A DNA stretch of 64,000 bases from contig CAXBYW010000002.1 in NCBI GenBank assembly GCA_963980225.1, positions 39,502 through 103,501 on the forward strand. The letters are read 5' to 3'. Source of the stretch: an uncultured bacterium. Lineage in GTDB: Bacteria; Patescibacteriota; Microgenomatia; UBA1400; MFAQ01. Below, in pieces: positions 11,757 through 48,188 of this stretch. The position numbers and the translations under genes were made by a program. Each line of letters begins with the position of its first letter. The stretch's first letter is position 1. The notes below the pieces were generated by a model. That model searched no databases, was not told the DNA's origin, and saw only the letters and a program-made list of their open reading frames with translations.

Positions 11757-12821
11757 ATGCTTGAAAAAATTTGGCGGATGACTACTTTGGATGTGGGGAT
11801 TGACCTGGGGACAGCTAATACGGTGGTGCATGTTAGAGGTAAAGGGATCGTGATTAGACAACCATCGGTGGTGGCAAGACATAAAAAAACTGGAGAGATA
11901 CTGGCTATTGGAGAAGAGGCCAGGAAGATGTTGGGCAAGAATCCTGCTAGCATAGAGGTGATAAGGCCTTTAAGGGATGGAGTGATAGCTGACTTTGATG
12001 CAACCGAGGCGATGCTTAAGCATTATATAGTTCAAGTACATGAGACATATAAGGGATTGGGGTTTAAGATGCCAAGGCCTAGGGTGGTAGTGGGGATTCC
12101 ATCTGGAGTAACAGAAGTAGAAAGAAGAGCGGTTTATGAGGCGGCCATAACGGCTGGAGCTAGAAAGGTGTTTTTGATTGAAGAACCTATGGCGGCGGCT
12201 ATCGGAGCAGGCATGCCTGTCAGTAAGGCTCAGGGACAGATGGTTATAGATATTGGAGGAGGAACTACAGAGATTGGGGTTATCTCCTTAGGAGGGTTAG
12301 TGTTGAACAAGTCATTGAGAGTTGCGGGAGACGAGTTGACTGAGGCGGTAATGTCGTTTGTTAGATTGAAACATAGTTTGCTTTTGGGTGAGAGTACAGC
12401 GGAGTCGGTCAAGTTAGCTGTGGGTTCTGCTTTCGAGTTAAAGTCAGAAGCAGATGGTAAACAGTTGCAGGTGGTGGTAAGAGGTAGAAGTTTAAATGAT
12501 GGTCTGCCAAAGTCTTTGAGACTTGGAAGTGTGGAGATTAGAGAAGCATTGATGCCGGTAATTAATACTATTTTGGTAGAGATTGCCCAGATTATTGAGG
12601 AGACACCACCGGATCTAGTAGCGGACATCTTGGAAAAAGGAGCTGTTATGGCTGGTGGAGGATCTTTGATTAGAGGAATTGACAAGTTAATATCTGAACA
12701 AACCGGCATGCCGGTTTGGATAACAGACAATCCGATGGAAGCAGTAGTAAGAGGGTGTGCTAAGGTTTTGGAAAATGATGGATTACTTAAAAAAGTAAGA
12801 GTGGTAGGGGATTTGGGATAG
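11757..12821 (+). CDS. mreB: rod shape-determining protein MreB
   Basis: DLGTANTVV, GGGTTEIGVISLGG actin-fold motifs. Confidence 0.95.
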   Translation: MLEKIWRMTTLDVGIDLGTANTVVHVRGKGIVIRQPSVVARHKKTGEILAIGEEARKMLGKNPASIEVIRPLRDGVIADFDATEAMLKHYIVQVHETYKGLGFKMPRPRVVVGIPSGVTEVERRAVYEAAITAGARKVFLIEEPMAAAIGAGMPVSKAQGQMVIDIGGGTTEIGVISLGGLVLNKSLRVAGDELTEAVMSFVRLKHSLLLGESTAESVKLAVGSAFELKSEADGKQLQVVVRGRSLNDGLPKSLRLGSVEIREALMPVINTILVEIAQIIEETPPDLVADILEKGAVMAGGGSLIRGIDKLISEQTGMPVWITDNPMEAVVRGCAKVLENDGLLKKVRVVGDLG

Positions 12822-12840
12822 TTTGTAGTATATTTAGTGT

Positions 12841-13413
12841 ATGAAGAAGTTGGCTTGGGTGGTATCTAGGCTTTTTGACCCGGTAATCGAGATTCCGATG
12901 ATCCTTTCGGTGGCGGTCTGGTGGGCATTGACCAATGGATTGAGATGGCGTTTTTTGATATTTCTTTTGATAGTGGATGCTTTGCTTCCAGCTTTGTACA
13001 TGTTCTATGGTTTGAAGAAAGGTTTTATTTCTGACTGGGATATAACAAAAAAGAAGGAGAGAAGAAGTTTGTATATTGTTACTTCCTTGACTCACTTAGT
13101 GGGAGTGGTTTATGCATTTTTCTTGGGTAAGACAGAGCTGGCCTCGATTTTGTTGGTATTTTGGAGTTTGGCAGTGGTATTTGCGGTAGTGACTTATTTC
13201 TGGAAGATTTCGGTTCACGCTGGAGTCAATGGCGTCATGTTGGCCTTTTTTAACCATTTCTGGGGCTGGGAAAGCTACTGGTGGTTGACGTTGGTTTTAC
13301 TGTTGGTTTTGTGGTCTAGGGTGGAGATTAAGAAACATAGTTGGTTACAGGTGATGGTGGGAGCAGGTTTGGCGGTTGCCTGGGTGGAGATGGGTTTAAA
13401 TTGGCTGCTTTAG
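12841..13413 (+). CDS. PAP2-superfamily-like membrane phosphatase (possible undecaprenyl-diphosphatase type)
   Basis: Polytopic membrane protein. ISVHAG (PSGH-like) and SRVEIKKH (SRxxxxxH) motifs. Confidence 0.4.
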   Translation: MKKLAWVVSRLFDPVIEIPMILSVAVWWALTNGLRWRFLIFLLIVDALLPALYMFYGLKKGFISDWDITKKKERRSLYIVTSLTHLVGVVYAFFLGKTELASILLVFWSLAVVFAVVTYFWKISVHAGVNGVMLAFFNHFWGWESYWWLTLVLLLVLWSRVEIKKHSWLQVMVGAGLAVAWVEMGLNWLL

Positions 13414-38638: not shown

Positions 38639-39766
38639 ATGAAGAATTTCTTGATAGGACTAATGGTTTCGGTGATTGTACTTTTTTCTGCATTTGGAGG
38701 AGCCTTAGCAGACAGACTGTTTGTTATTAAGCCTTTGGATAAAATTTTTAAAAGAAGTGAGGTTGTGGTGGAAGAAAAGGTAAAAATACTAAGTGAGGAT
38801 GGTGGAGTAGTTGAAGTGGTAGAGAGAGTAAGTCCAGCGGTAGTGACGGTAGCGGTCATAGGCCAGACCCAAGGAAGAATAGTATTTGATGCTTTTGAGT
38901 TTTTTGGATTTAGACAAGAAGAACCGGAGATCGTACAACAAGATATTGGTTCTGGGTTTGTAGTCGATGGCCAAGAAGGGGTGGTGGTAACTAACAAGCA
39001 TGTAGTAGCTAGAGATGGAGTGAAGTATGTGGTGATTGATAAAGAAGGAGAGGAGTATGAGGTCAAGGATTTGTATAGGGACCCAGTGAATGACTTAGCG
39101 ATACTAAAGATTGAGGCTGAAAAGAGTTTGGAGGCAATTACGCTGGGTGATTCTGACCTTTTAAAGGTGGGCCAGAGAGTAATAGCTATTGGTACAGCTT
39201 TGGGAGAGTTTAGACACACAGTGACTACAGGGGTGATTTCTGGTTTGGGTAGGGGAATAAGTGCGGGTAATGGTTCCTTAGGGAGTCTTGAGAAAATTGA
39301 TGATGTCATCCAGACAGATGCCGCTATTAACCCTGGAAATTCTGGAGGACCTTTGCTTGATATAAATGGTCGGGTAATAGGAGTAAATGTAGCTGTGGCT
39401 GGTGGGGGAGAAAATATTGGTTTTGCTATTCCAATTAATGTAGTTAGGGAATCACTTGATAACTTTAAGGAGACAGGAAGCTTTGATAGGGTACAGTTGG
39501 GGGTGAAGTACAGGATGATAGATAAAGATGTGGCTTTACTGAATGATGTGCCTGCAGGAGCTTACATTGTGGAGGTGATGGAGGATTCAGTAGCAGCAAA
39601 AAATGGAGTTTTGGTAGGAGATATCATTATCAAACTTGAAAATGAAGGAGTAGTTGAAGTAGATGGTGGCCTGGCTGGTTTAATAGGTAAGTTGAAGGTG
39701 GGAGAAAATATTAAGATTGAATTATGGAGAAATGGTCAAATTTTGGTCCTAAATATTAAGCTTTAA
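38639..39766 (+). CDS. htrA: HtrA/DegP-family trypsin-like serine protease with PDZ domain
   Basis: N-terminal TM. TNKHVV (His), DLAILK (Asp), GNSGGPLLDINGRVIGVN (Ser) catalytic triad motifs. C-terminal PDZ. Confidence 0.85.
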   Translation: MKNFLIGLMVSVIVLFSAFGGALADRLFVIKPLDKIFKRSEVVVEEKVKILSEDGGVVEVVERVSPAVVTVAVIGQTQGRIVFDAFEFFGFRQEEPEIVQQDIGSGFVVDGQEGVVVTNKHVVARDGVKYVVIDKEGEEYEVKDLYRDPVNDLAILKIEAEKSLEAITLGDSDLLKVGQRVIAIGTALGEFRHTVTTGVISGLGRGISAGNGSLGSLEKIDDVIQTDAAINPGNSGGPLLDINGRVIGVNVAVAGGGENIGFAIPINVVRESLDNFKETGSFDRVQLGVKYRMIDKDVALLNDVPAGAYIVEVMEDSVAAKNGVLVGDIIIKLENEGVVEVDGGLAGLIGKLKVGENIKIELWRNGQILVLNIKL

Positions 39767-40649
39767 GGACTTTTTCTAGTTGACCTTCCATGACTTCTTT
39801 TAGGTTGTGCCAGCTTTTGTTTAGCCTGTGGTCGGTGAGTCTATTCTGGGGAAAGTTGTAGGTTTTTATCTTTTCTGATCTCATACCTCTACCTACGGCT
39901 TCTGATCTGGTGGCTTCGATTTCTTTTAGCTTTTCTTCTTCTTGCTGTTGCCAGAGTTTTGATCGCAGCATGTCTAAGGCTATTTCTTTGTTTTGAACTT
40001 GAGACCTTTCTTGACGAACAGATACAGTCATCTGGGTAGGTTTGTGGGTAAGACGAACAGCAGTGTTGACCTTGTTTACATTTTGTCCACCTGGTCCACC
40101 GGCTGTAGTGAAAGCCCATTCTAAGTCTGATAACTTGAGTTGGACTAAGTCCTTTTTAATTTCTGGTAAAACGGTTACTGTGGCAGTAGAGGTGTGGATT
40201 CTACCTTGTGACTCTGTGGCGGGGACTCTTTGGACTCTATGGACCCCAGCTTCATTTTTGAAGGTTTCAAAGCAACCTAGGGGCCAGTCAGAGCTGTTGG
40301 CTTTTTTGAGCTTGATTGTACTAGTGTCGATTTCTTCTATTTTGAAGTTATGGTTATTAGCAAATCTTACATACATTCGTAGTAGGTCTTGCGCAAAGAT
40401 TTTGGCTTCATCACCACCAGCAGCAGCTCTTATCTCTATGACGACTGGGGCATTTTTGGGAACTTGTGAAACTTTTTCTTTCTGTTTTTCTACCTGTTGG
40501 CCAGCTTTTTCTAGTTGTTTTATCTGATCTTGAAGTTTTTTGATTTCTTCTTTGGCTAGGGGACCGAGTTCAGGATCATTTACCAGGTCCTGGTGAGATT
40601 TGACTTTGTTTTGGAGGCGATCTATTTCTGGTTTAAGAGAGTTGTTCAT
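39756..40649 (-). CDS. prfA: peptide chain release factor 1 (N-terminally short, 297 aa)
   Basis: RVPATE (PxT tripeptide anticodon motif, RF1-type). GGQ ([12 protein letters not shown]). C-terminal [14 protein letters not shown]. Confidence 0.85.
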
Positions 40650-40939: not shown

Positions 40940-41003
40940 ACAGAGGCTATTTTAACATAAAGATGATTTACACACTAGTAGTTTGTCGATTTTGAAGGTA
41001 AGT

Positions 41004-41032
41004 TTGACAGAAATACGGTCTTGTAGTATATT
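41004..41032 (+). promoter_or_regulatory. sigma70-type promoter of tRNA-like/ncRNA unit 1
   Basis: TTGACA (41004-41009), 17-nt spacer, TATATT (41027-41032). The CTTGTAGTATATTGAT block is repeated at unit 2. Confidence 0.6.
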
Positions 41033-41166
41033 GATGGAGTCATGTGTGAATTGGCAAACCTCCTTTTATTGAAGCCGTGTTGACACTTAGCTTCCAAGCT
41101 AGATAAATTTATTTGCCTCAATTTATCTAGCCGCACTTATTGCACATTTATTTGTATTTGGTTGAT

Positions 41167-41239
41167 GCGGGATTAGCTTAGTTGGCAGAGCACTTTCCTG
41201 CTCGGGAAGAGGTCACAGGTTCGAGTCCTGTATCCTGCT
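41167..41239 (+). tRNA. tRNA-like element 1 (class I cloverleaf; anticodon loop CUGCUCG lacks purine-37; identity unclear)
   Basis: 7-bp acceptor GCGGGAT/ATCCTGC. D-arm TAGCTTAGTTGGCAGAGC. Canonical T-arm ACAGG-TTCGAGT-CCTGT. Anticodon stem CTTTC/GGAAG with loop CTGCTCG (anticodon would be GCU, but the short variable arm is incompatible with tRNA-Ser). Confidence 0.5.
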
Positions 41240-41577
41240 TTTTAAAGGAGGCATAATCTCCTTTAAAAAATGATATAGGTAAGTGTCTAAGGTTTGATTT
41301 GAGATGAGTCAGATTTTGGCCTCCAACTTACCTAACCCTGATCTTGTCGTCTGAGGATAGATGTAGATACTGTCAATAGACAGTAATTTGCAGATGGGAT
41401 GTCCCACCGAAGACGACAAAACAACCAACAAGGAATGAAAACATATAACGCCGTAGTTTTCACTCCTTGATCGATCAAGGAAGTTCCTCGGTAGGATGAA
41501 ACCTTGTTGGTTGTTAAAAACTTATCCGTGTAGGATTAAGACTCGATTCTGAGTTTTGAGCTTACACGGTTTTTTTT
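41240..41577 (+). ncRNA. structured noncoding RNA co-transcribed downstream of tRNA-like element 1, ending in intrinsic terminator (41526-41577)
   Basis: No ORF. Nested stems (ggtaagt/acttacc; ttgtcgtct/agacgacaa; aaccaacaagg/ccttgttggtt; tccttgatc/gatcaagga). Terminator ccgtgtag...cttacacgg plus T8. Confidence 0.45.
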
Positions 41578-41597
41578 ATGGCAAGAAAGTAAACATA

Positions 41598-41626
41598 TTG
41601 ACAGAGATAAAAGCTTGTAGTATATT
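41598..41626 (+). promoter_or_regulatory. sigma70-type promoter of tRNA-like/ncRNA unit 2
   Basis: TTGACA (41598-41603), 17-nt spacer, TATATT (41621-41626). Same CTTGTAGTATATTGAT block as unit 1. Confidence 0.6.
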
Positions 41627-41769
41627 GATCAAACTGACAGATGTCAGTTATAGGAGGAGATCGGTACCTCCCGAATTTGGTGGAAGAGTCACCGTAAACT
41701 TCTAAGTTGGATAACTATCCATGGAAGGTTATCCAACCGCACTTATTGCACATTTTTATTTTTTTAAAC

Positions 41770-41848
41770 GCGGGCTTAGCTCAGCTGGTAGAGCATTCCG
41801 GACATCACTGAAAGGAAAAGGTCACAGGTTCGAATCCTGTAGTCCGCT
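41770..41848 (+). tRNA. tRNA-like element 2 with enlarged, non-canonical anticodon arm (23 nt instead of 17)
   Basis: Acceptor GCGGGCT/AGTCCGC. D-arm TAGCTCAGCTGGTAGAGC. T-arm ACAGG-TTCGAAT-CCTGT. Region between D and variable arms is ttccggacatcactgaaaggaaa, which cannot form a 5-bp stem plus 7-nt loop. Confidence 0.4.
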
Positions 41849-42144
41849 TTAAAGAGGGTGGTTAATCTCTCTTTATAAGAGGTTGAATAGGTTGCTACAA
41901 CCTGATCACAAAACCTCGTCGTCTAAGAACGGTTTAAGTATGCTGCTTTACAAAGATTTACCAGCCTAAACCGCTAATGAGACAGTAGCTCTCAGCGAAG
42001 ACGACAACGACTAACGAGGAAGTGAGGCATCCACTTCATTGGATCAAGGAGTTTTCCGTTTGGGAATGAACCTTGTTAGTCGTTAAAAAATCATCTGGAT
42101 AAAAGTAAGGCTCGATTCTGAGTTCTGAAATTATCCAGTTTTTT
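41849..42144 (+). ncRNA. structured noncoding RNA paralog downstream of tRNA-like element 2, ending in intrinsic terminator (42095-42144)
   Basis: Paralogous to 41240-41577. Conserved blocks: tcgtcgtct...gaagacgacaa, ggatcaagga, gaaccttgtt. Compensatory stem changes (gactaacgagg/ccttgttagtc). Terminator ctggataa...ttatccag plus T6 with the same loop gctcgattctgagttctga. Confidence 0.45.
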
Positions 42145-42155
42145 ATGGGAAAAAA

Positions 42156-43058
42156 CTAACGTTTTTCTGCTATGTAAACACCGAAAATGATGATGGCAAT
42201 GGAGAATATGTTTAGTAAAGAGATTGATTCTGAGAGTAATAGTATGGCTGTTGGTACGGAGAAGATCGGTTGGAGGTAGGTGAAAAGAGAGGCTTCTGAT
42301 GCTTCGATTTTGTCTTGACCAATAAGATAGAGGGTAAGTCCTATGATAGAGCCAAAGACACCCATATAGACGATTGCGGCTGCAGGCCAGAAACCAGTTG
42401 CTAATTGAAAAGGCTGGCCAGATATTAGGGCGATAGCTCCAAAAGAAATTAAACCAACCCAGAAGCTTATGTGGGTGACCAACCATTTATTTATACCAAC
42501 GTAGTGCTTTTTAGCTAAAAGAAAGTAGGCGGCCATACATACGTTTTGGCCTAAGACTAATAGATTTCCGGTAACAGTGCCAGTAAAACCACTGTTTCTC
42601 ACTAATGGTTCACCAACTAAGAATAGAGTTCCAATTAAGGCTAATATAGTACCTTTAAGCTCATGCTTTTGTTCCTTTTCCTTGAAAAATAGGATGCCAC
42701 CCAAGATAACTAGGATAGGCCAGGTGATGGCGATAAGGGAGGACTCAATAGCTGAAGTTCGGTTTAATCCTTGATAGAGCAGGAAGAGAGCAAGGAAGGT
42801 GCCGAGAGCTTCTAAAGGAACTATTTTAAGTATGTTTTTTAGGTGAATCTGTTTTTTAAACTTAGAATCCTTAAGGAATAGATAAATGATGATCGGAAAA
42901 GAAAAGAGAGTGGCCAAAAAGAACCTACCAATCAAGAAACTGTTGGGAGTTAGACCTGCGTCGAAACCTTTCTTGACGATGGGCAGAGCTAAACCCCAGA
43001 CGAATGTGTTACCTAAAAGTGCTAGATAAGCAATCAGGCGGGTTTTTGTGAGTTTCAT
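42156..43058 (-). CDS. EamA/DMT-family transporter
   Basis: 10 TM helices in two repeated halves typical of drug/metabolite transporter (EamA) proteins. Confidence 0.7.
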   Translation of the reverse strand: MKLTKTRLIAYLALLGNTFVWGLALPIVKKGFDAGLTPNSFLIGRFFLATLFSFPIIIYLFLKDSKFKKQIHLKNILKIVPLEALGTFLALFLLYQGLNRTSAIESSLIAITWPILVILGGILFFKEKEQKHELKGTILALIGTLFLVGEPLVRNSGFTGTVTGNLLVLGQNVCMAAYFLLAKKHYVGINKWLVTHISFWVGLISFGAIALISGQPFQLATGFWPAAAIVYMGVFGSIIGLTLYLIGQDKIEASEASLFTYLQPIFSVPTAILLLSESISLLNIFSIAIIIFGVYIAEKR

Positions 43059-44304: not shown

Positions 44305-44946
44305 TTATTGTAGCAAAAGTTGAAGAGAGAGAAGGGTGTGCGTTTGATCCTCTATGTCGGTTTCGATGATGGCCATGATTGTTTGACCTATTTCTATTTC
44401 TTCTGTATCTAAGTCAAGGTTTTTGGGTATGTCTATGGTTAAGTCACCAATAGTTAGCTCAAGAGTGTCTAGGTCAAGGTTTTGGATAGGGCCAACAACT
44501 GTTTGGCGTGTGGAGTCGGGTGTAGTGGTTTTTATGGCTACAATGCGCTTAGCCGAGAGAATGTCTTCTGTATCTAGTTGGCCAATGGTGATGATCTTTT
44601 CTTCTATCGAAAGACTGGTGAGTTTAACTACTTGTCCGTTTCGCACTACGTCTGTATTCTCATTGGTAGTGATTTGGATTTCGGTGTTTTGAGAGGTGTT
44701 TATGATAATAACGGAACTCATTATCTTGGTAATGATGCCGGAATAGCCTACGAGAGCGCCTCTTTCCTGCTTGTCTTTAATGTTCTCTTCTGCGGTGTCT
44801 AGTTTATCCTTAACCACATCCTGGATTCTTTGTTTTAGGTTTTCGTTGATTTCCTCAGCACTTTGGGTGGCTACCATCTCTTCAGCAAAGACAGGTCGGG
44901 AGATGATTAAGGCGAGAGCAATGAGAAGGATGCTTAGTTTTTTCAT
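44305..44946 (-). CDS. hypothetical secreted protein
   Basis: N-terminal signal peptide (LLIALALIISRPVFA). No motif. Confidence 0.35.
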   Translation of the reverse strand: MKKLSILLIALALIISRPVFAEEMVATQSAEEINENLKQRIQDVVKDKLDTAEENIKDKQERGALVGYSGIITKIMSSVIIINTSQNTEIQITTNENTDVVRNGQVVKLTSLSIEEKIITIGQLDTEDILSAKRIVAIKTTTPDSTRQTVVGPIQNLDLDTLELTIGDLTIDIPKNLDLDTEEIEIGQTIMAIIETDIEDQTHTLLSLQLLLQ

Positions 44947-48104: not shown

Positions 48105-48188
48105 TGCCGCGGGAGGGGATCGAACCCTCATGGTGAAATCACCATTGGTTTTTGAGACCAACCTGTATACCAGTTCCAGCACCGCGGC
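48105..48188 (-). tRNA. tRNA-Leu (anticodon CAA), class II
   Basis: Reverse complement gives GCCGCGG acceptor, anticodon stem TTGGT/ACCAA with loop CTCAAAA, long variable arm TGGTGATTTCACCAT, T-arm GAGGG-TTCGATC-CCCTC. No encoded CCA. Confidence 0.8.

What the first reader, a model, noticed from the sequence alone, without database searches (positions are those of the whole stretch)
41167..41848. Both tRNA-like elements have non-canonical anticodon arms
Element 1 folds as a normal class I cloverleaf, but its anticodon loop is CUGCUCG. This has a pyrimidine at position 37, and an anticodon GCU (Ser) that is incompatible with its short variable arm. Element 2 has perfect acceptor, D and T arms, but 23 nt where the 17-nt anticodon arm should be. 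No 5-bp stem plus 7-nt loop can be drawn there. Acceptor, D and T arms are nearly identical between the two.

These may be tRNA-like structural domains (processing signals, mimicry) of the longer transcript rather than decoding tRNAs. Alternatively, element 2 carries a small insertion or intron. By contrast, the tRNA-Leu(CAA) at 48105-48188 is fully canonical.
Basis: seen in the sequence. Interest (0 to 1): 0.6.

Follow-up and report, generated by a model that had tools for sequence, protein, structure and literature searches.

The report
Non-decoding tRNA-shaped domains inside CPR ncRNAs
The two odd "tRNAs" are real tRNA-shaped folds that cannot read codons; each sits inside its own roughly 550-base structured non-coding RNA gene, which I found only in a small group of uncultured ultra-small (CPR) bacteria, and they most likely serve as cutting marks or tRNA mimics.

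Summary
Both elements score as tRNA, with fully paired acceptor, D and T arms, and neither has a usable anticodon arm. Element 1 is a 6-bp stem with a UGCUC pentaloop. Element 2 is a 4-bp stem with a 14-nt loop.

They are not isolated genes. Each lies in one of two tandem paralogous units (about 41004-41577 and 41598-42154, + strand). Each unit runs: sigma-70 promoter, leader with a covarying hairpin (P2) and an invariant AU-rich box, tRNA-like cloverleaf, a purine-rich hairpin, two multi-helix domains, then a compound terminator.

The host is a Patescibacteria/CPR bacterium related to the Microgenomates group. Relatives carry 0, 1 or 2 such units at the same site, between EamA and the L31-RF1 genes and antisense to them.

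Nine tRNA-like elements of three different body types keep 143/143 standard pairs in the acceptor, D and T stems. None of the nine has a canonical anticodon arm. Two strains with 98% identical flanks differ by 16% in the tRNA-like core and are unalignable in most of the unit 3' of it.

Best reading: isotype-independent tRNA mimics that act as RNase P/RNase Z processing handles in a fast-evolving ncRNA. Function is untested. Rfam has no family for the units.

The parts
41004..41032 (+). Promoter of unit 1 (TTGACA, 17 nt, TATATT, preceded by CTTGTAG)
   Evidence: Scores 11/12 against the consensus. The same block is conserved in unit 2 and in L025, L028, L029, L030, L035 and L036.
41098..41131 (+). 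Leader hairpin P2 of unit 1 (GCUAGAUAAAUU / AAUUUAUCUAGC)
   Evidence: Inverted repeat I4. Across 9 units 97% of cells are paired and 7 of 11 pairs show compensatory changes.
41131..41166 (+). AU-rich leader box of unit 1 (CCGCACUUAUUGCACAUUU, then a U-rich run up to the tRNA-like 5' end)
   Evidence: 19 nt are identical between the two units. UUAUUGCACAUUU is invariant in 7 of the 8 units with a complete box (divergent in L030; the contig of L035 ends at the box). Model R1 finds it only in these units.
41167..41239 (+). tRNA-like element 1: class I cloverleaf with G3:U70 and U73; the anticodon arm is a 6-bp stem with a UGCUC pentaloop
41239..41270 (+). Hairpin H3 of unit 1 (UUUUUAAAGGAG / CUCCUUUAAAAA, loop GCAUAAU), directly 3' of the discriminator base
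   Evidence: Inverted repeat I5. A homologous purine-rich hairpin follows the tRNA-like element in unit 2, L025, L028, L029, L030 and L036-A.
41278..41332 (+). Hairpin H4 of unit 1
   Evidence: Minimum-free-energy fold.
41346..41417 (+). Domain D1 of unit 1: three-way junction closed by GUCGUC/GACGAC
   Evidence: Fold. The closing helix covaries: GUUGUU/GACAAC in L028 and GUCCUC/GAGGAC in L025 and L029.
41420..41515 (+). Domain D2 of unit 1: multi-hairpin domain closed by AACAACCAACAAGG / CCUUGUUGGUUGUU
   Evidence: Inverted repeat I1. Compensatory changes occur in unit 2 (I3), L025, L029 and L036.
41526..41577 (+). Compound intrinsic terminator of unit 1: outer stem CCGUGUA/UACACGG, inner conserved hairpin CUCGAUUCUGAG, then a run of 8 U
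   Evidence: Sequence and fold. The outer stem covaries with that of unit 2.
41598..41626 (+). Promoter of unit 2
   Evidence: Scores 11/12 against the consensus.
41706..41737 (+). Leader hairpin P2 of unit 2 (GUUGGAUAAC / GUUAUCCAAC)
   Evidence: Inverted repeat I2 and covariation. Nearly the same sequence occurs in L036-A and L036-B.
41737..41769 (+). AU-rich leader box of unit 2
41770..41848 (+). tRNA-like element 2: perfect acceptor, D and T arms; the 23-nt anticodon region folds as a 4-bp stem with a 14-nt loop
41851..41874 (+). Hairpin H3 of unit 2 (AAAGAGGG / CUCUCUUU)
41918..42005 (+). Domain D1 of unit 2 (closed by GUCGUC/GACGAC)
42006..42084 (+). Domain D2 of unit 2 (AACGACUAACGAGG / CCUUGUUAGUCGUU)
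   Evidence: Inverted repeat I3.
42095..42154 (+). Compound terminator of unit 2 (CUGGAUAA/UUAUCCAG plus a U run). It probably works in both directions, because it abuts the EamA stop codon at 42156.

Best explanation
**What it is.** Two tandem, independently promoted and terminated genes for a structured non-coding RNA of about 520-550 nt. The family is specific to one lineage of Patescibacteria (CPR). In each RNA a complete tRNA-shaped cloverleaf is embedded about 130 nt from the 5' end.

**What the cloverleaf keeps and loses.**
- It keeps everything that makes the tRNA L-shape: a 7-bp acceptor stem with G1:C72, U8, A14, the G18-G19 D loop, a UUCGA T loop in eight of the nine elements (L029 has AUUCAACC), and the 15-48 pair.
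- Its anticodon arm is replaced by a closed or irregular hairpin that cannot present an anticodon.
- Acceptor sequence, discriminator base and even the tRNA body type differ between homologous units. The function therefore cannot depend on one aminoacyl-tRNA synthetase or on decoding.

**Most likely mechanism (inferred, not shown).**
- The cloverleaf is a handle for the enzymes that act on every tRNA.
- RNase P would cut at its 5' side. That releases a leader RNA ending in the P2 hairpin and the conserved AU-rich box.
- RNase Z would cut after the discriminator; no CCA is encoded. That releases a 3' RNA that begins with hairpin H3 and carries domains D1 and D2.
- This is 'tRNA punctuation' of a non-coding transcript. 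A tRNA-sized by-product could itself act as a mimic.

**Evolution.** The units are dispensable and change quickly, probably through recombination between tandem copies at the conserved box.
For: **Shown**
- Both elements are tRNA-like by covariance model.
- Each lies inside a promoter-to-terminator unit. The two units are paralogous and strongly structured: z = -9.5 and -4.1 against shuffles. Of the pairs in the unit-1 fold, 68% are kept in unit 2, against 39-49% for slid controls, and 16 pairs carry double changes.
- Units occupy the same genomic slot in relatives whose RF1 is 75-89% identical to the window's: L025, L028, L029, L030, L035 and L036. Other relatives, with RF1 79-82% identical, have an empty slot: L026/L027, L031 and L032.
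- Nine tRNA-like elements of three body types show 143/143 standard pairs in acceptor, D and T stems, with many compensatory changes. None of the nine has a 5-bp stem with a 7-nt U33/R37 loop.
- L036 unit A has two tRNA-like elements flanking a two-hairpin segment of about 95 nt in one transcription unit. This is the layout expected for punctuation.
- The discriminator base varies (U, G, A, C), and G3:U70 occurs only in element 1.
- P2 covaries strongly, and the P2-plus-box model matches only these units.
- The genuine tRNA-Leu of the same genome has no such leader and also lacks an encoded CCA, so RNase Z-type maturation is plausible here.

**From established knowledge**
- RNase P and RNase Z recognise the acceptor/T-arm stack and the elbow, and do not need the anticodon arm.
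- tRNA-like 't-elements' are cut by RNase P and RNase Z to release flanked RNAs in Haloferax (PMC6546412) and mark transcript ends in plant mitochondria (PMC1920247, title listed).
- Murine gammaherpesvirus TMERs join non-aminoacylated tRNA-like elements to downstream hairpin RNAs (PMC4337559).
Against: - There is no expression, end-mapping or cleavage evidence. The promoters and terminators are consensus matches only.
- The punctuation model does not explain why the AU-rich box just 5' of the cloverleaf is the most conserved sequence of the unit.
- It does not explain why the same anticodon-arm caps recur: UGCUC in element 1, L025 and L028; UUAAUAU in L029 and L030.
- L029 has a non-canonical T loop (AUUCAACC), which would weaken the elbow.
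- In L036 unit B the tRNA-like element lies about 190 nt from the box, not next to it.
- L028 has lost domain D2, so the 3' RNA is not indispensable.
- The family could be followed only at one locus in 8 contigs. The two large DNA pattern scans used patterns that were too specific and found only chance hits.
Confidence: 0.42

Rival explanations
1. The tRNA-sized RNA is itself the effector. It would be a non-decoding tRNA mimic that binds or decoys a tRNA-recognising factor. Candidates are a tRNA-targeting nuclease or toxin from phage or competitors, the CCA-adding enzyme, a modification enzyme, EF-Tu, or a ribosomal tRNA site. The rest of the transcript would be only leader and trailer, or a stabiliser.
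For: - The L-shape determinants are fully conserved while the anticodon arm is capped.
- Recurring cap sequences (UGCUC, UUAAUAU), shared between units and even between different tRNA bodies, suggest that the cap is selected.
- Rapid divergence, copy number of 0, 1 or 2, and replacement of the segment from the cloverleaf to the terminator between strains with 98% identical flanks fit a conflict-driven accessory locus.
- Precedents exist: bacterial Y RNAs mimic tRNA (PMC4201824), B. cereus tRNA-Other is a non-translating pseudo-tRNA with regulatory effects (PMC3399842), and a single MHV68 tRNA-like RNA restores virulence (PMC4337559).
Against: - The anticodon loops do not imitate real anticodon loops, which a decoy for anticodon nucleases would need.
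- This reading gives no role to the conserved P2/box or to domains D1 and D2, which also covary.
- No partner protein gene is linked to the units.
Confidence: 0.25
2. The units are decaying remnants of an old tRNA operon (pseudo-tRNAs with spacers), or debris of a mobile element that once integrated between EamA and L31, and have no present function.
For: - Presence is patchy (0, 1 or 2 units) among close relatives.
- Divergence is faster than in the flanking genes.
- Domains are lost (L028) and one T loop has degenerated (L029).
- The unit interrupts what is one gene string, HisS-EamA-L31-RF1, in relatives.
Against: - Neutral decay would break stems. Instead 143/143 acceptor, D and T pairs are standard, with many double changes. 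P2 shows 97% pairing with 7 of 11 pairs covarying, and D1, D2 and the terminator helices covary.
- The promoter, P2 and box stay conserved in relatives whose RF1 is only 75-80% identical to the window's.
- Only the anticodon arm is consistently abnormal.
- A reduced genome keeps 1.2 kb here.
- No integrase, no repeats of a target site and no phage or plasmid similarity were found.
Confidence: 0.12
3. The conserved part works at the DNA level. The P2 inverted repeat plus the AT-rich box would be a protein-binding or recombination site: a cassette-exchange boundary, an integration site, or an origin-like element with DnaA-box-like arms TTATCCAAC. The tRNA-like sequence would be only its usual neighbour.
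For: - Between L025 and L028, identity is about 99% up to the box and collapses from there to the terminator.
- Assemblies repeatedly break at or just upstream of this point.
- The 19-nt box is identical in the two window units, whose overall identity is only 61-77% depending on the alignment.
- The P2 arms match 7 of 9 positions of the DnaA box consensus (my reading).
- Palindromes covary under either model.
Against: - No recombinase gene lies nearby.
- GC skew does not invert here.
- P2 stem length and loop size vary (9-15 bp), which is unlike a fixed protein site.
- Unequal homologous recombination between tandem units explains the breakpoint without a dedicated site.
- The many non-palindromic helices that covary point to selection on the RNA.
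Confidence: 0.08
4. They are genuine decoding tRNAs with unusual anticodon loops: tRNA-Ser(GCU) without a long variable arm, and tRNA-Met(CAU) with a small insertion or intron in element 2.
For: - ARAGORN assigns Ser-GCU and Met-CAU.
- Rfam tRNA scores are high.
- The acceptor, D and T arms are perfect.
Against: - Element 1 has C37, and its C32:G38 pair closes the loop to 5 nt.
- Element 2 needs a mismatch, A33 and C37.
- Homologues have stems of 7 bp or more with 5-, 6- or 13-nt loops, or lack U33.
- The cores are only 84% identical between strains whose flanking genes are 98% identical. Decoding tRNAs would be expected to be far more conserved between strains this close.
- Relatives lack the units altogether.
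- The excess of 6 nt is too short for a known intron, and no intron family matches.
Confidence: 0.03

Closest known systems
tRNA-like 't-elements' used as RNase P / RNase Z processing signals (plant mitochondrial mRNAs, PMC1920247; Haloferax t-element-flanked RNAs, PMC6546412)
   Same: A tRNA-shaped fold with no decoding role is embedded in a longer transcript and marks the borders of the neighbouring RNAs. Only the acceptor, T and D architecture matters.
   Different: - The host is a CPR bacterium and the flanked RNAs are non-coding structured domains.
- The units have their own promoter and terminator, a conserved P2/box leader and a complete four-arm cloverleaf.
- Cleavage is not demonstrated here.
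Murine gammaherpesvirus 68 TMERs (tRNA-miRNA-encoded RNAs), PMC4337559
   Same: A non-aminoacylated tRNA-like element is followed in the same short transcript by stable hairpins. Several paralogous units are clustered. The tRNA-like part may have a function of its own.
   Different: - TMERs are viral and transcribed by RNA polymerase III from promoters inside the tRNA-like element, and the hairpins are pre-miRNAs.
- Here transcription starts at an upstream sigma-70 promoter, a 130-nt leader precedes the cloverleaf, and bacteria have no miRNA pathway.
MALAT1 mascRNA / NEAT1 tRNA-like elements (PMC8457004)
   Same: A tRNA-like cloverleaf with a degenerate anticodon loop sits inside a long ncRNA. 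It is cut by RNase P and RNase Z to define the end of the long RNA and yields a small tRNA-like by-product.
   Different: Those are eukaryotic and nuclear, with the tRNA-like element at the 3' end of a very long RNA. Here it lies in the 5' third of an RNA of about 550 nt.
Bacterial Y RNAs (YrlA) with a tRNA-like domain (PMC4201824)
   Same: A bacterial ncRNA contains a module that mimics the tRNA acceptor, T and D arms and does not decode.
   Different: - In YrlA the anticodon stem is replaced by the Ro60-binding helix, and the gene is linked to rsr/rtcB.
- No Ro60 gene lies in the window stretches and relatives' loci I annotated (I did not annotate the whole window), and no YrlA covariance-model match was found.
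- Here the cloverleaf is contiguous and has all four arms.
Bacillus cereus tRNA-Other (pseudo-tRNA acting as a regulatory RNA), PMC3399842
   Same: A bacterial tRNA-like gene that does not function in translation and affects other processes.
   Different: tRNA-Other is a stand-alone tRNA-sized gene at the border of a genomic island. Here the element is a domain of a larger conserved structured RNA and exists in several body types.
GOLLD / ROOL large ncRNAs (Rfam RF01998, RF03087), which are often next to tRNAs or contain them (from my own knowledge of Weinberg et al. 2009)
   Same: A large, highly structured, patchily distributed bacterial ncRNA is associated with tRNA sequences.
   Different: No covariance-model match was found even at E <= 10. 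The units are smaller (about 550 nt), have a different architecture, have no prophage context, and the embedded tRNA is non-decoding.

Membership tests
Canonical decoding tRNA (Rfam RF00005) | Cloverleaf with 7-bp acceptor, D and T arms and conserved tertiary nucleotides | tested here: met
   Scores are 56.1 and 51.4 bits against a threshold of 29. All acceptor, D and T pairs are standard.
Canonical decoding tRNA (Rfam RF00005) | 5-bp anticodon stem with a 7-nt loop, U33 and a purine at position 37 | tested here: not met
   - Element 1 has C37, and the C32:G38 pair gives a 5-nt loop.
- Element 2 has a 4-bp stem with a 14-nt loop.
- None of the nine family members is canonical.
Canonical decoding tRNA (Rfam RF00005) | Isotype-consistent identity elements (for example a long variable arm for Ser, or a fixed discriminator base) | tested here: not met
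   The GCU 'anticodon' comes with a 5-nt variable loop. The discriminator is U, G, A or C among homologues.
Canonical decoding tRNA (Rfam RF00005) | Near-invariance among closely related strains, and presence in all relatives | tested here: not met
   Core identity is 84% between L025 and L028, whose flanks are 98% identical. The units are absent from L026/27, L031 and L032.
Canonical decoding tRNA (Rfam RF00005) | CCA addition and aminoacylation | not testable with these tools
   This needs tRNA-seq or acid-gel northern blots.
Intron-containing tRNA | A group I intron or a bulge-helix-bulge intron in or next to the anticodon loop | tested here: not met
   The excess is only 6 nt. No intron family matches at E <= 10. 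ARAGORN reports no intron.
tmRNA | tRNA-like domain formed by the 5' and 3' ends, plus a tag reading frame and pseudoknots | tested here: not met
   ARAGORN and Rfam find no tmRNA. The cloverleaf is contiguous and internal, and the units share no conserved ORF (my reading).
Bacterial Y RNA (YrlA) | Ro60-binding stem in place of the anticodon arm, and linkage to rsr | tested here: not met
   There is no Rfam match. None of the nearby proteins I scanned (15 ORFs in about 35.2-49.3 kb) is Ro60, RtcB or any other RNA-binding or RNA-repair protein; the precomputed Pfam calls on the relatives' loci show none either. The rest of the window was not annotated.
tRNA-like processing elements (t-elements, mascRNA-type punctuation); a functional class, not a sequence family | tRNA-shaped fold with an intact acceptor/T-arm stack and elbow, embedded between other RNA segments of one transcript | tested here: met
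   The element lies inside a predicted promoter-to-terminator unit. The L-shape determinants are conserved. L036-A has two elements flanking a hairpin segment.
tRNA-like processing elements (t-elements, mascRNA-type punctuation); a functional class, not a sequence family | Actual cleavage by RNase P at the 5' border and RNase Z at the 3' border | not testable with these tools
   This needs end-mapping or an in vitro cleavage assay.
GOLLD / ROOL / OLE / HEARO and other large ncRNA families of Rfam 15 | Match to the family covariance model | tested here: not met
   Only tRNA passes. The sole other matches at E <= 10 are chance-level: SpF41 at 21.5 bits (threshold 52) and Teg23 at 14.3 bits (threshold 166).
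T-box leader | Stem I specifier and platform, plus the T-box antiterminator sequence | tested here: not met
   There is no Rfam match. The GGGUGGU string after element 2 is not conserved in the other units.

The most novel reading that the evidence does not exclude
The locus is an RNA-only, recombining cassette system.
- A conserved leader (P2 hairpin plus AU-rich box) acts as a fixed 5' platform and as the recombination boundary.
- Behind it, interchangeable modules are shuffled between tandem copies and between strains: tRNA-shaped scaffolds with selected cap loops such as UGCUC or UUAAUAU, and domains D1 and D2.
- The tRNA-shaped products would act as decoys or inhibitors in a conflict that targets the tRNA pool, whether with phage, with competitors or with the host of the episymbiont.
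- That would make this the first tRNA-mimic counter-measure described in CPR bacteria.
Probability: 0.12. Interest if true: 0.8.

Novelty: new variant of a known kind. Interest (0 to 1): 0.55.

Why it matters
**For annotation.** CPR/Patescibacteria have tiny genomes with very little non-coding DNA, and I found no description of a structured RNA of this kind in them in four of the literature searches. A 1.2-kb stretch holding two strongly promoted, highly structured RNA genes is therefore notable. tRNA finders call these elements Ser-GCU, Met-CAU, Lys and Ala. That would distort tRNA inventories and codon-capacity estimates for such genomes.

**For biology.** If the cloverleaves are processing handles, 'tRNA punctuation' of non-coding transcripts exists in free-standing bacterial genes. 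So far I know of it in organelles, archaea, herpesviruses and mammalian lncRNAs. If they are mimics, the rapid turnover points to an unknown conflict centred on tRNA.

**Testability.** Either reading can be tested directly with metatranscriptomes from the marine samples that contain this organism, and with in vitro RNase P and RNase Z assays.

Tried and rejected
**Searches that found nothing useful**
- Wide DNA pattern scans. CCGCACTTATTGCACATTT in genome contigs gave 3 hits, and TAAGNCTCGATTCTGAGTT in metagenome contigs gave 11 hits. All were chance: single matches with no tRNA nearby.
- Two viral-contig scans for the box, and for the box plus the cloverleaf start: 0 hits.
- blastn against phages and plasmids: only generic tRNA similarity (about 77%, to Ile, Val, Arg and Pro). 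There was no isotype signal and nothing for the flanks.
- Spurious-ORF trick. I searched the 43-aa ORF that spans the box and element 2 against the protein collection to find homologous units. No candidates came back.
- Rfam at E <= 10 over 39.5-44.5 kb. Only tRNA plus two chance-level hits. T-box, tmRNA, Y RNA, GOLLD/ROOL, ribozymes and introns were all absent.
- Other copies in the window or in 215 kb of fetched loci: none found by blastn or by the P2-box covariance model R1.
- Linked protein partner. The neighbours are L31, short RF1, HtrA, CtpA, EamA, HisRS, a metallo-hydrolase, DnaB and EF-P. None is an RNA-binding or RNA-repair protein, and there is no integrase.
- Literature searches for tRNA-like RNAs in Patescibacteria: nothing.

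**Ideas tested and dropped**
- Kissing interaction between the anticodon-arm loop and another part of the same unit. Complementarity was no better than for shuffled loops, except nominally in L028 (10 of 500). Rejected.
- Hammerhead-like reading of D1 (CUGAGGA ... GAA). The order of the helices does not fit, and there is no model match. Rejected on inspection.
- CsrA-sponge reading (many GGA motifs). The GGA motifs lie mostly in stems, and the + strand is G-rich throughout. Not pursued.
- Small conserved ORF after the SD-like hairpin. ORFs of 2-22 codons exist in single units, but none is conserved (inspection). Rejected.
- Replication origin. P2 resembles a DnaA box, but GC skew does not change sign. 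Unlikely.
Full report
**1.

ARAGORN and the Rfam tRNA model both find elements at 41167-41239 and 41770-41848 on the + strand, at 56.1 and 51.4 bits against a threshold of 29.

Element 1 is a 73-nt class I cloverleaf. In the thermodynamic fold C32 pairs with G38. The arm is therefore really a 6-bp stem capped by a UGCUC pentaloop.

Element 2 has 23 nt in place of the 17-nt anticodon arm. Rfam treats 19 nt as an insertion, and the fold gives a 4-bp stem with a 14-nt loop. ARAGORN's 'Met-CAU' needs a C.U mismatch, A33, C37 and an 11-nt variable region.

Outside that arm the two elements are 86% identical. The tRNA-Leu(CAA) at 48105-48188, on the minus strand, is canonical.

**2. The elements are domains of two tandem RNA genes**

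The region 40990-42160 consists of two paralogous units (alignment A1). Each unit runs as follows:
- a promoter that matches 11 of 12 consensus positions, TTGACA-17-TATATT, at 41004 and 41598;
- a leader of about 130 nt with hairpins, the last of which I call P2;
- a 19-nt block, CCGCACTTATTGCACATTT, identical in both units, followed by a U-rich run;
- the tRNA-like cloverleaf;
- directly after the discriminator base, a purine-rich hairpin H3 (AAAGGAG/CUCCUUU);
- a further hairpin, then a three-way-junction domain D1 closed by GUCGUC/GACGAC;
- a multi-hairpin domain D2 closed by a 14-bp helix;
- a compound terminator whose large loop holds a conserved inner hairpin, followed by a run of U.

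The D2 helix shows compensatory changes between the units: AACAACCAACAAGG/CCUUGUUGGUUGUU against AACGACUAACGAGG/CCUUGUUAGUCGUU.

Both units fold far better than shuffles, with z = -9.5 and -4.1. Of the base pairs in the unit-1 fold, 68% are kept in unit 2, against 39-49% when the partners are slid. Sixteen pairs change on both sides.

Rfam 15 has no family for anything here except tRNA, even at E <= 10. No ORF is conserved between the units.

**3. Host and genomic setting**

Neighbouring genes are L31 and a short RF1 (divergent, minus strand), and EamA and HisRS (convergent, minus strand). RF1 homologues with names belong to Patescibacteria of the Microgenomates group, such as Collierbacteria and Woesebacteria. 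The exact L31 protein occurs only in metagenome contigs. The ten contigs I read are identical to the window over the part of this region that each one covers: nine span all 1217 bp, while L010 ends after 165 bp.

In relatives without the units, the EamA stop is followed at once, or after a spacer of up to about 95 nt, by the L31 promoter. The units are therefore an antisense insertion into an otherwise continuous HisS-EamA-L31-RF1 gene string.

**4. Homologous units in relatives**

I fetched syntenic loci through RF1 homologues.
- **Three relatives with RF1 89% identical** (L025, L028, L029) carry one unit each.
- **L030** (RF1 80%) carries one unit.
- **L035** (RF1 75%) has the promoter, leader and P2, and its contig ends exactly at the box.
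- **L036** (RF1 79%) carries two tandem units with three tRNA-like elements.
- **L026/27, L031 and L032** (RF1 79-82%) have an empty site.

The P2 hairpin is strongly supported across nine units: 97% of cells are paired, 7 of 11 pairs change on both sides, and no shuffle or slid control comes close. A covariance model of P2 plus the box finds only these units in 215 kb of sequence. D1 and D2 also recur with compensatory changes.

**5. The tRNA-like elements compared**

I parsed nine elements. All 143 acceptor, D and T pairs are standard pairs.

There are three body types:
- GCGGG... in the window, L025, L028, L029 and L036-A1;
- a body like tRNA-Glu, GCCCUUG UC GUCU..., in L030 and L036-B. Its core is about 40% identical to the first type (measured for L030);
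- GCCUUCG... in L036-A2.

G1:C72, U8, A14 and the GG of the D loop are kept in all nine. The UUCGA T loop is kept in eight; L029 has AUUCAACC.

The anticodon arm is never canonical:
- 6-7 bp with a UGCUC pentaloop in window element 1, L025 and L028;
- 7 bp with a 5-nt loop in L036-A1;
- 7 bp with a 6-nt loop in L030;
- a long extended hairpin in L029;
- 4 bp with a 14-nt loop in window element 2;
- a 7-nt loop with C33 and U37 in L036-B;
- in L036-A2 I could not draw a clean stem; at best a short AGAU/AUCU stem with a 6-nt loop.

The discriminator is U, G, A or C. G3:U70 occurs only in window element 1.

What is selected, then, is the generic tRNA shape with a blocked anticodon end. It is not an isotype and not a codon.

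**6. Evolutionary behaviour**

L025 and L028 have flanking genes that are 98-98.6% identical. Their leaders are about 99% identical up to the box. Their tRNA-like cores are only 84% identical. Between the cloverleaf and the terminator the two sequences cannot be aligned; similarity resumes only in the terminator's 3' half. L028 carries a D1 of the window-unit-1 type and lacks D2.

Between the window and the 89% group, coding genes are 80-84% identical at the DNA level. Within the units, only about 100 nt (the box plus the cloverleaf) can be aligned by blastn. Several assemblies break at this point.

The simplest account is unequal recombination between tandem units at the conserved box and cloverleaf, on top of fast sequence change. 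Diversifying selection is possible but not shown.

**7. What it most likely does**

The conserved features are those read by enzymes that handle every tRNA. The variable or disabled features are those read by synthetases and the ribosome. I therefore favour a processing-handle role.
- RNase P would cut at the 5' border.
- RNase Z would cut after the discriminator. CCA is not encoded, and it is not encoded in the genuine tRNA-Leu either.
- The primary transcript would be split into a leader RNA, a tRNA-sized RNA, and a 3' RNA that starts with the protective hairpin H3.
- L036-A has two cloverleaves bracketing a two-hairpin segment of about 95 nt. That is the arrangement expected for such punctuation.

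Precedents:
- t-elements cut by RNase P and RNase Z in Haloferax (PMC6546412);
- t-elements at plant mitochondrial transcript ends (PMC1920247, title only);
- MALAT1/mascRNA (PMC8457004);
- herpesvirus TMERs, where non-aminoacylated tRNA-like elements precede hairpin RNAs (PMC4337559).

I give this mechanism about 0.4. That the elements are non-decoding tRNA-like domains of a structured ncRNA I hold at about 0.85.

**8. What stays unexplained**
- Why the AU-rich box is the most conserved sequence.
- Why the same arm caps recur in different units and bodies (UGCUC; UUAAUAU in L029 and L030).
- What D1 and D2 do.
- Why the units always sit next to L31-RF1.

These points keep the mimic or decoy reading alive at about 0.25. 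Bacterial Y RNAs (PMC4201824) and B. cereus tRNA-Other (PMC3399842) are its precedents.

Neutral decay of an old tRNA operon (0.12) is contradicted by the perfect stems and the covariation. A DNA-level site (0.08) lacks a recombinase and any skew signal. Genuine decoding tRNAs or an intron (0.03) are contradicted by the loops, the strain-level divergence and the empty sites.

**9. Limits**
- The family could be traced only at one locus in eight contigs from relatives. My two large pattern scans were too specific and returned only chance hits.
- Searches of phages, plasmids and viral contigs found nothing.
- No expression data were available. All transcript boundaries are predictions.

**10. 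Verdict**

This is a real and more than curious feature: a previously undescribed, lineage-restricted ncRNA family of CPR bacteria, built around non-decoding tRNA-shaped domains. In kind it is a new bacterial variant of the known 'tRNA-like element in a longer RNA' theme. Interest is moderate to high (0.55), mainly because of the host group, the clean comparative signal and the direct testability.

Noticed in passing
window 1-64000: The + strand GC skew is extreme: 0.33-0.53 over 1-40 kb. It stays positive (0.02-0.4) even where genes lie on the minus strand. This is far above what I recall as typical for bacteria (about 0.05; not checked here). There is no sign change, so no replication origin or terminus lies in the window.
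   Followed up: partly
window 39756-40649 (-): The RF1 gene encodes only 297 aa. It lacks about 46 N-terminal residues of the profile and scores below the NCBIfam equivalog cut-off. All close homologues in CPR bacteria are similarly short (295-317 aa).
   Followed up: partly
window 12815-12843 and 40940-40975: The motif TTGTAGTATATT also lies directly in front of ORF 12841-13413. L31 has TGTTAAAAT about 14 nt before its ATG. Promoters in this genome seem to sit almost on the start codons, giving leaderless or very short-leader mRNAs, and the units' promoter is of the generic type.
   Followed up: partly
window 41706-41737; L036 2352-2384 and about 1745-1777: The arms of hairpin P2 read GTTGGATAA / TTATCCAAC, matching 7 of 9 positions of the DnaA box TTATCCACA. 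They are followed by a very AT-rich stretch. This is probably coincidence, because the skew does not invert.
   Followed up: partly
L033 1-110, L034 1-85, L035 1-186: Independent metagenome assemblies end within about 100-190 nt upstream of L31. In L035 the end falls exactly at the leader box. This suggests a repeat or strain polymorphism at this locus in natural populations.
   Followed up: partly
L030 3500-3600: A scaffold gap (run of N) has the same 55 nt duplicated on both sides. This is an assembly artefact that inflates the apparent intergenic length.
   Followed up: yes
window 42095-42160: The terminator of unit 2 abuts the EamA stop codon (42156) and has U/A runs on both sides. It probably terminates the convergent HisS-EamA transcript as well.
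   Followed up: no
window 41239-41270, 41851-41874; D2 at about 41480-41500 and 42050-42060: Shine-Dalgarno-like strings (AAGGAGG, AAGGAGU) recur in H3 and D2 of nearly all units, usually paired with CCUCC-like strings. No conserved ORF follows them, and their meaning is unknown.
   Followed up: partly
L026 1590-2357: In a relative without the units, a canonical tRNA-His(GUG) and an NYN-domain protein precede HisS. At the corresponding position the window has a 213-aa protein (44305-44946, minus strand) with no Pfam or NCBIfam match.
   Followed up: no
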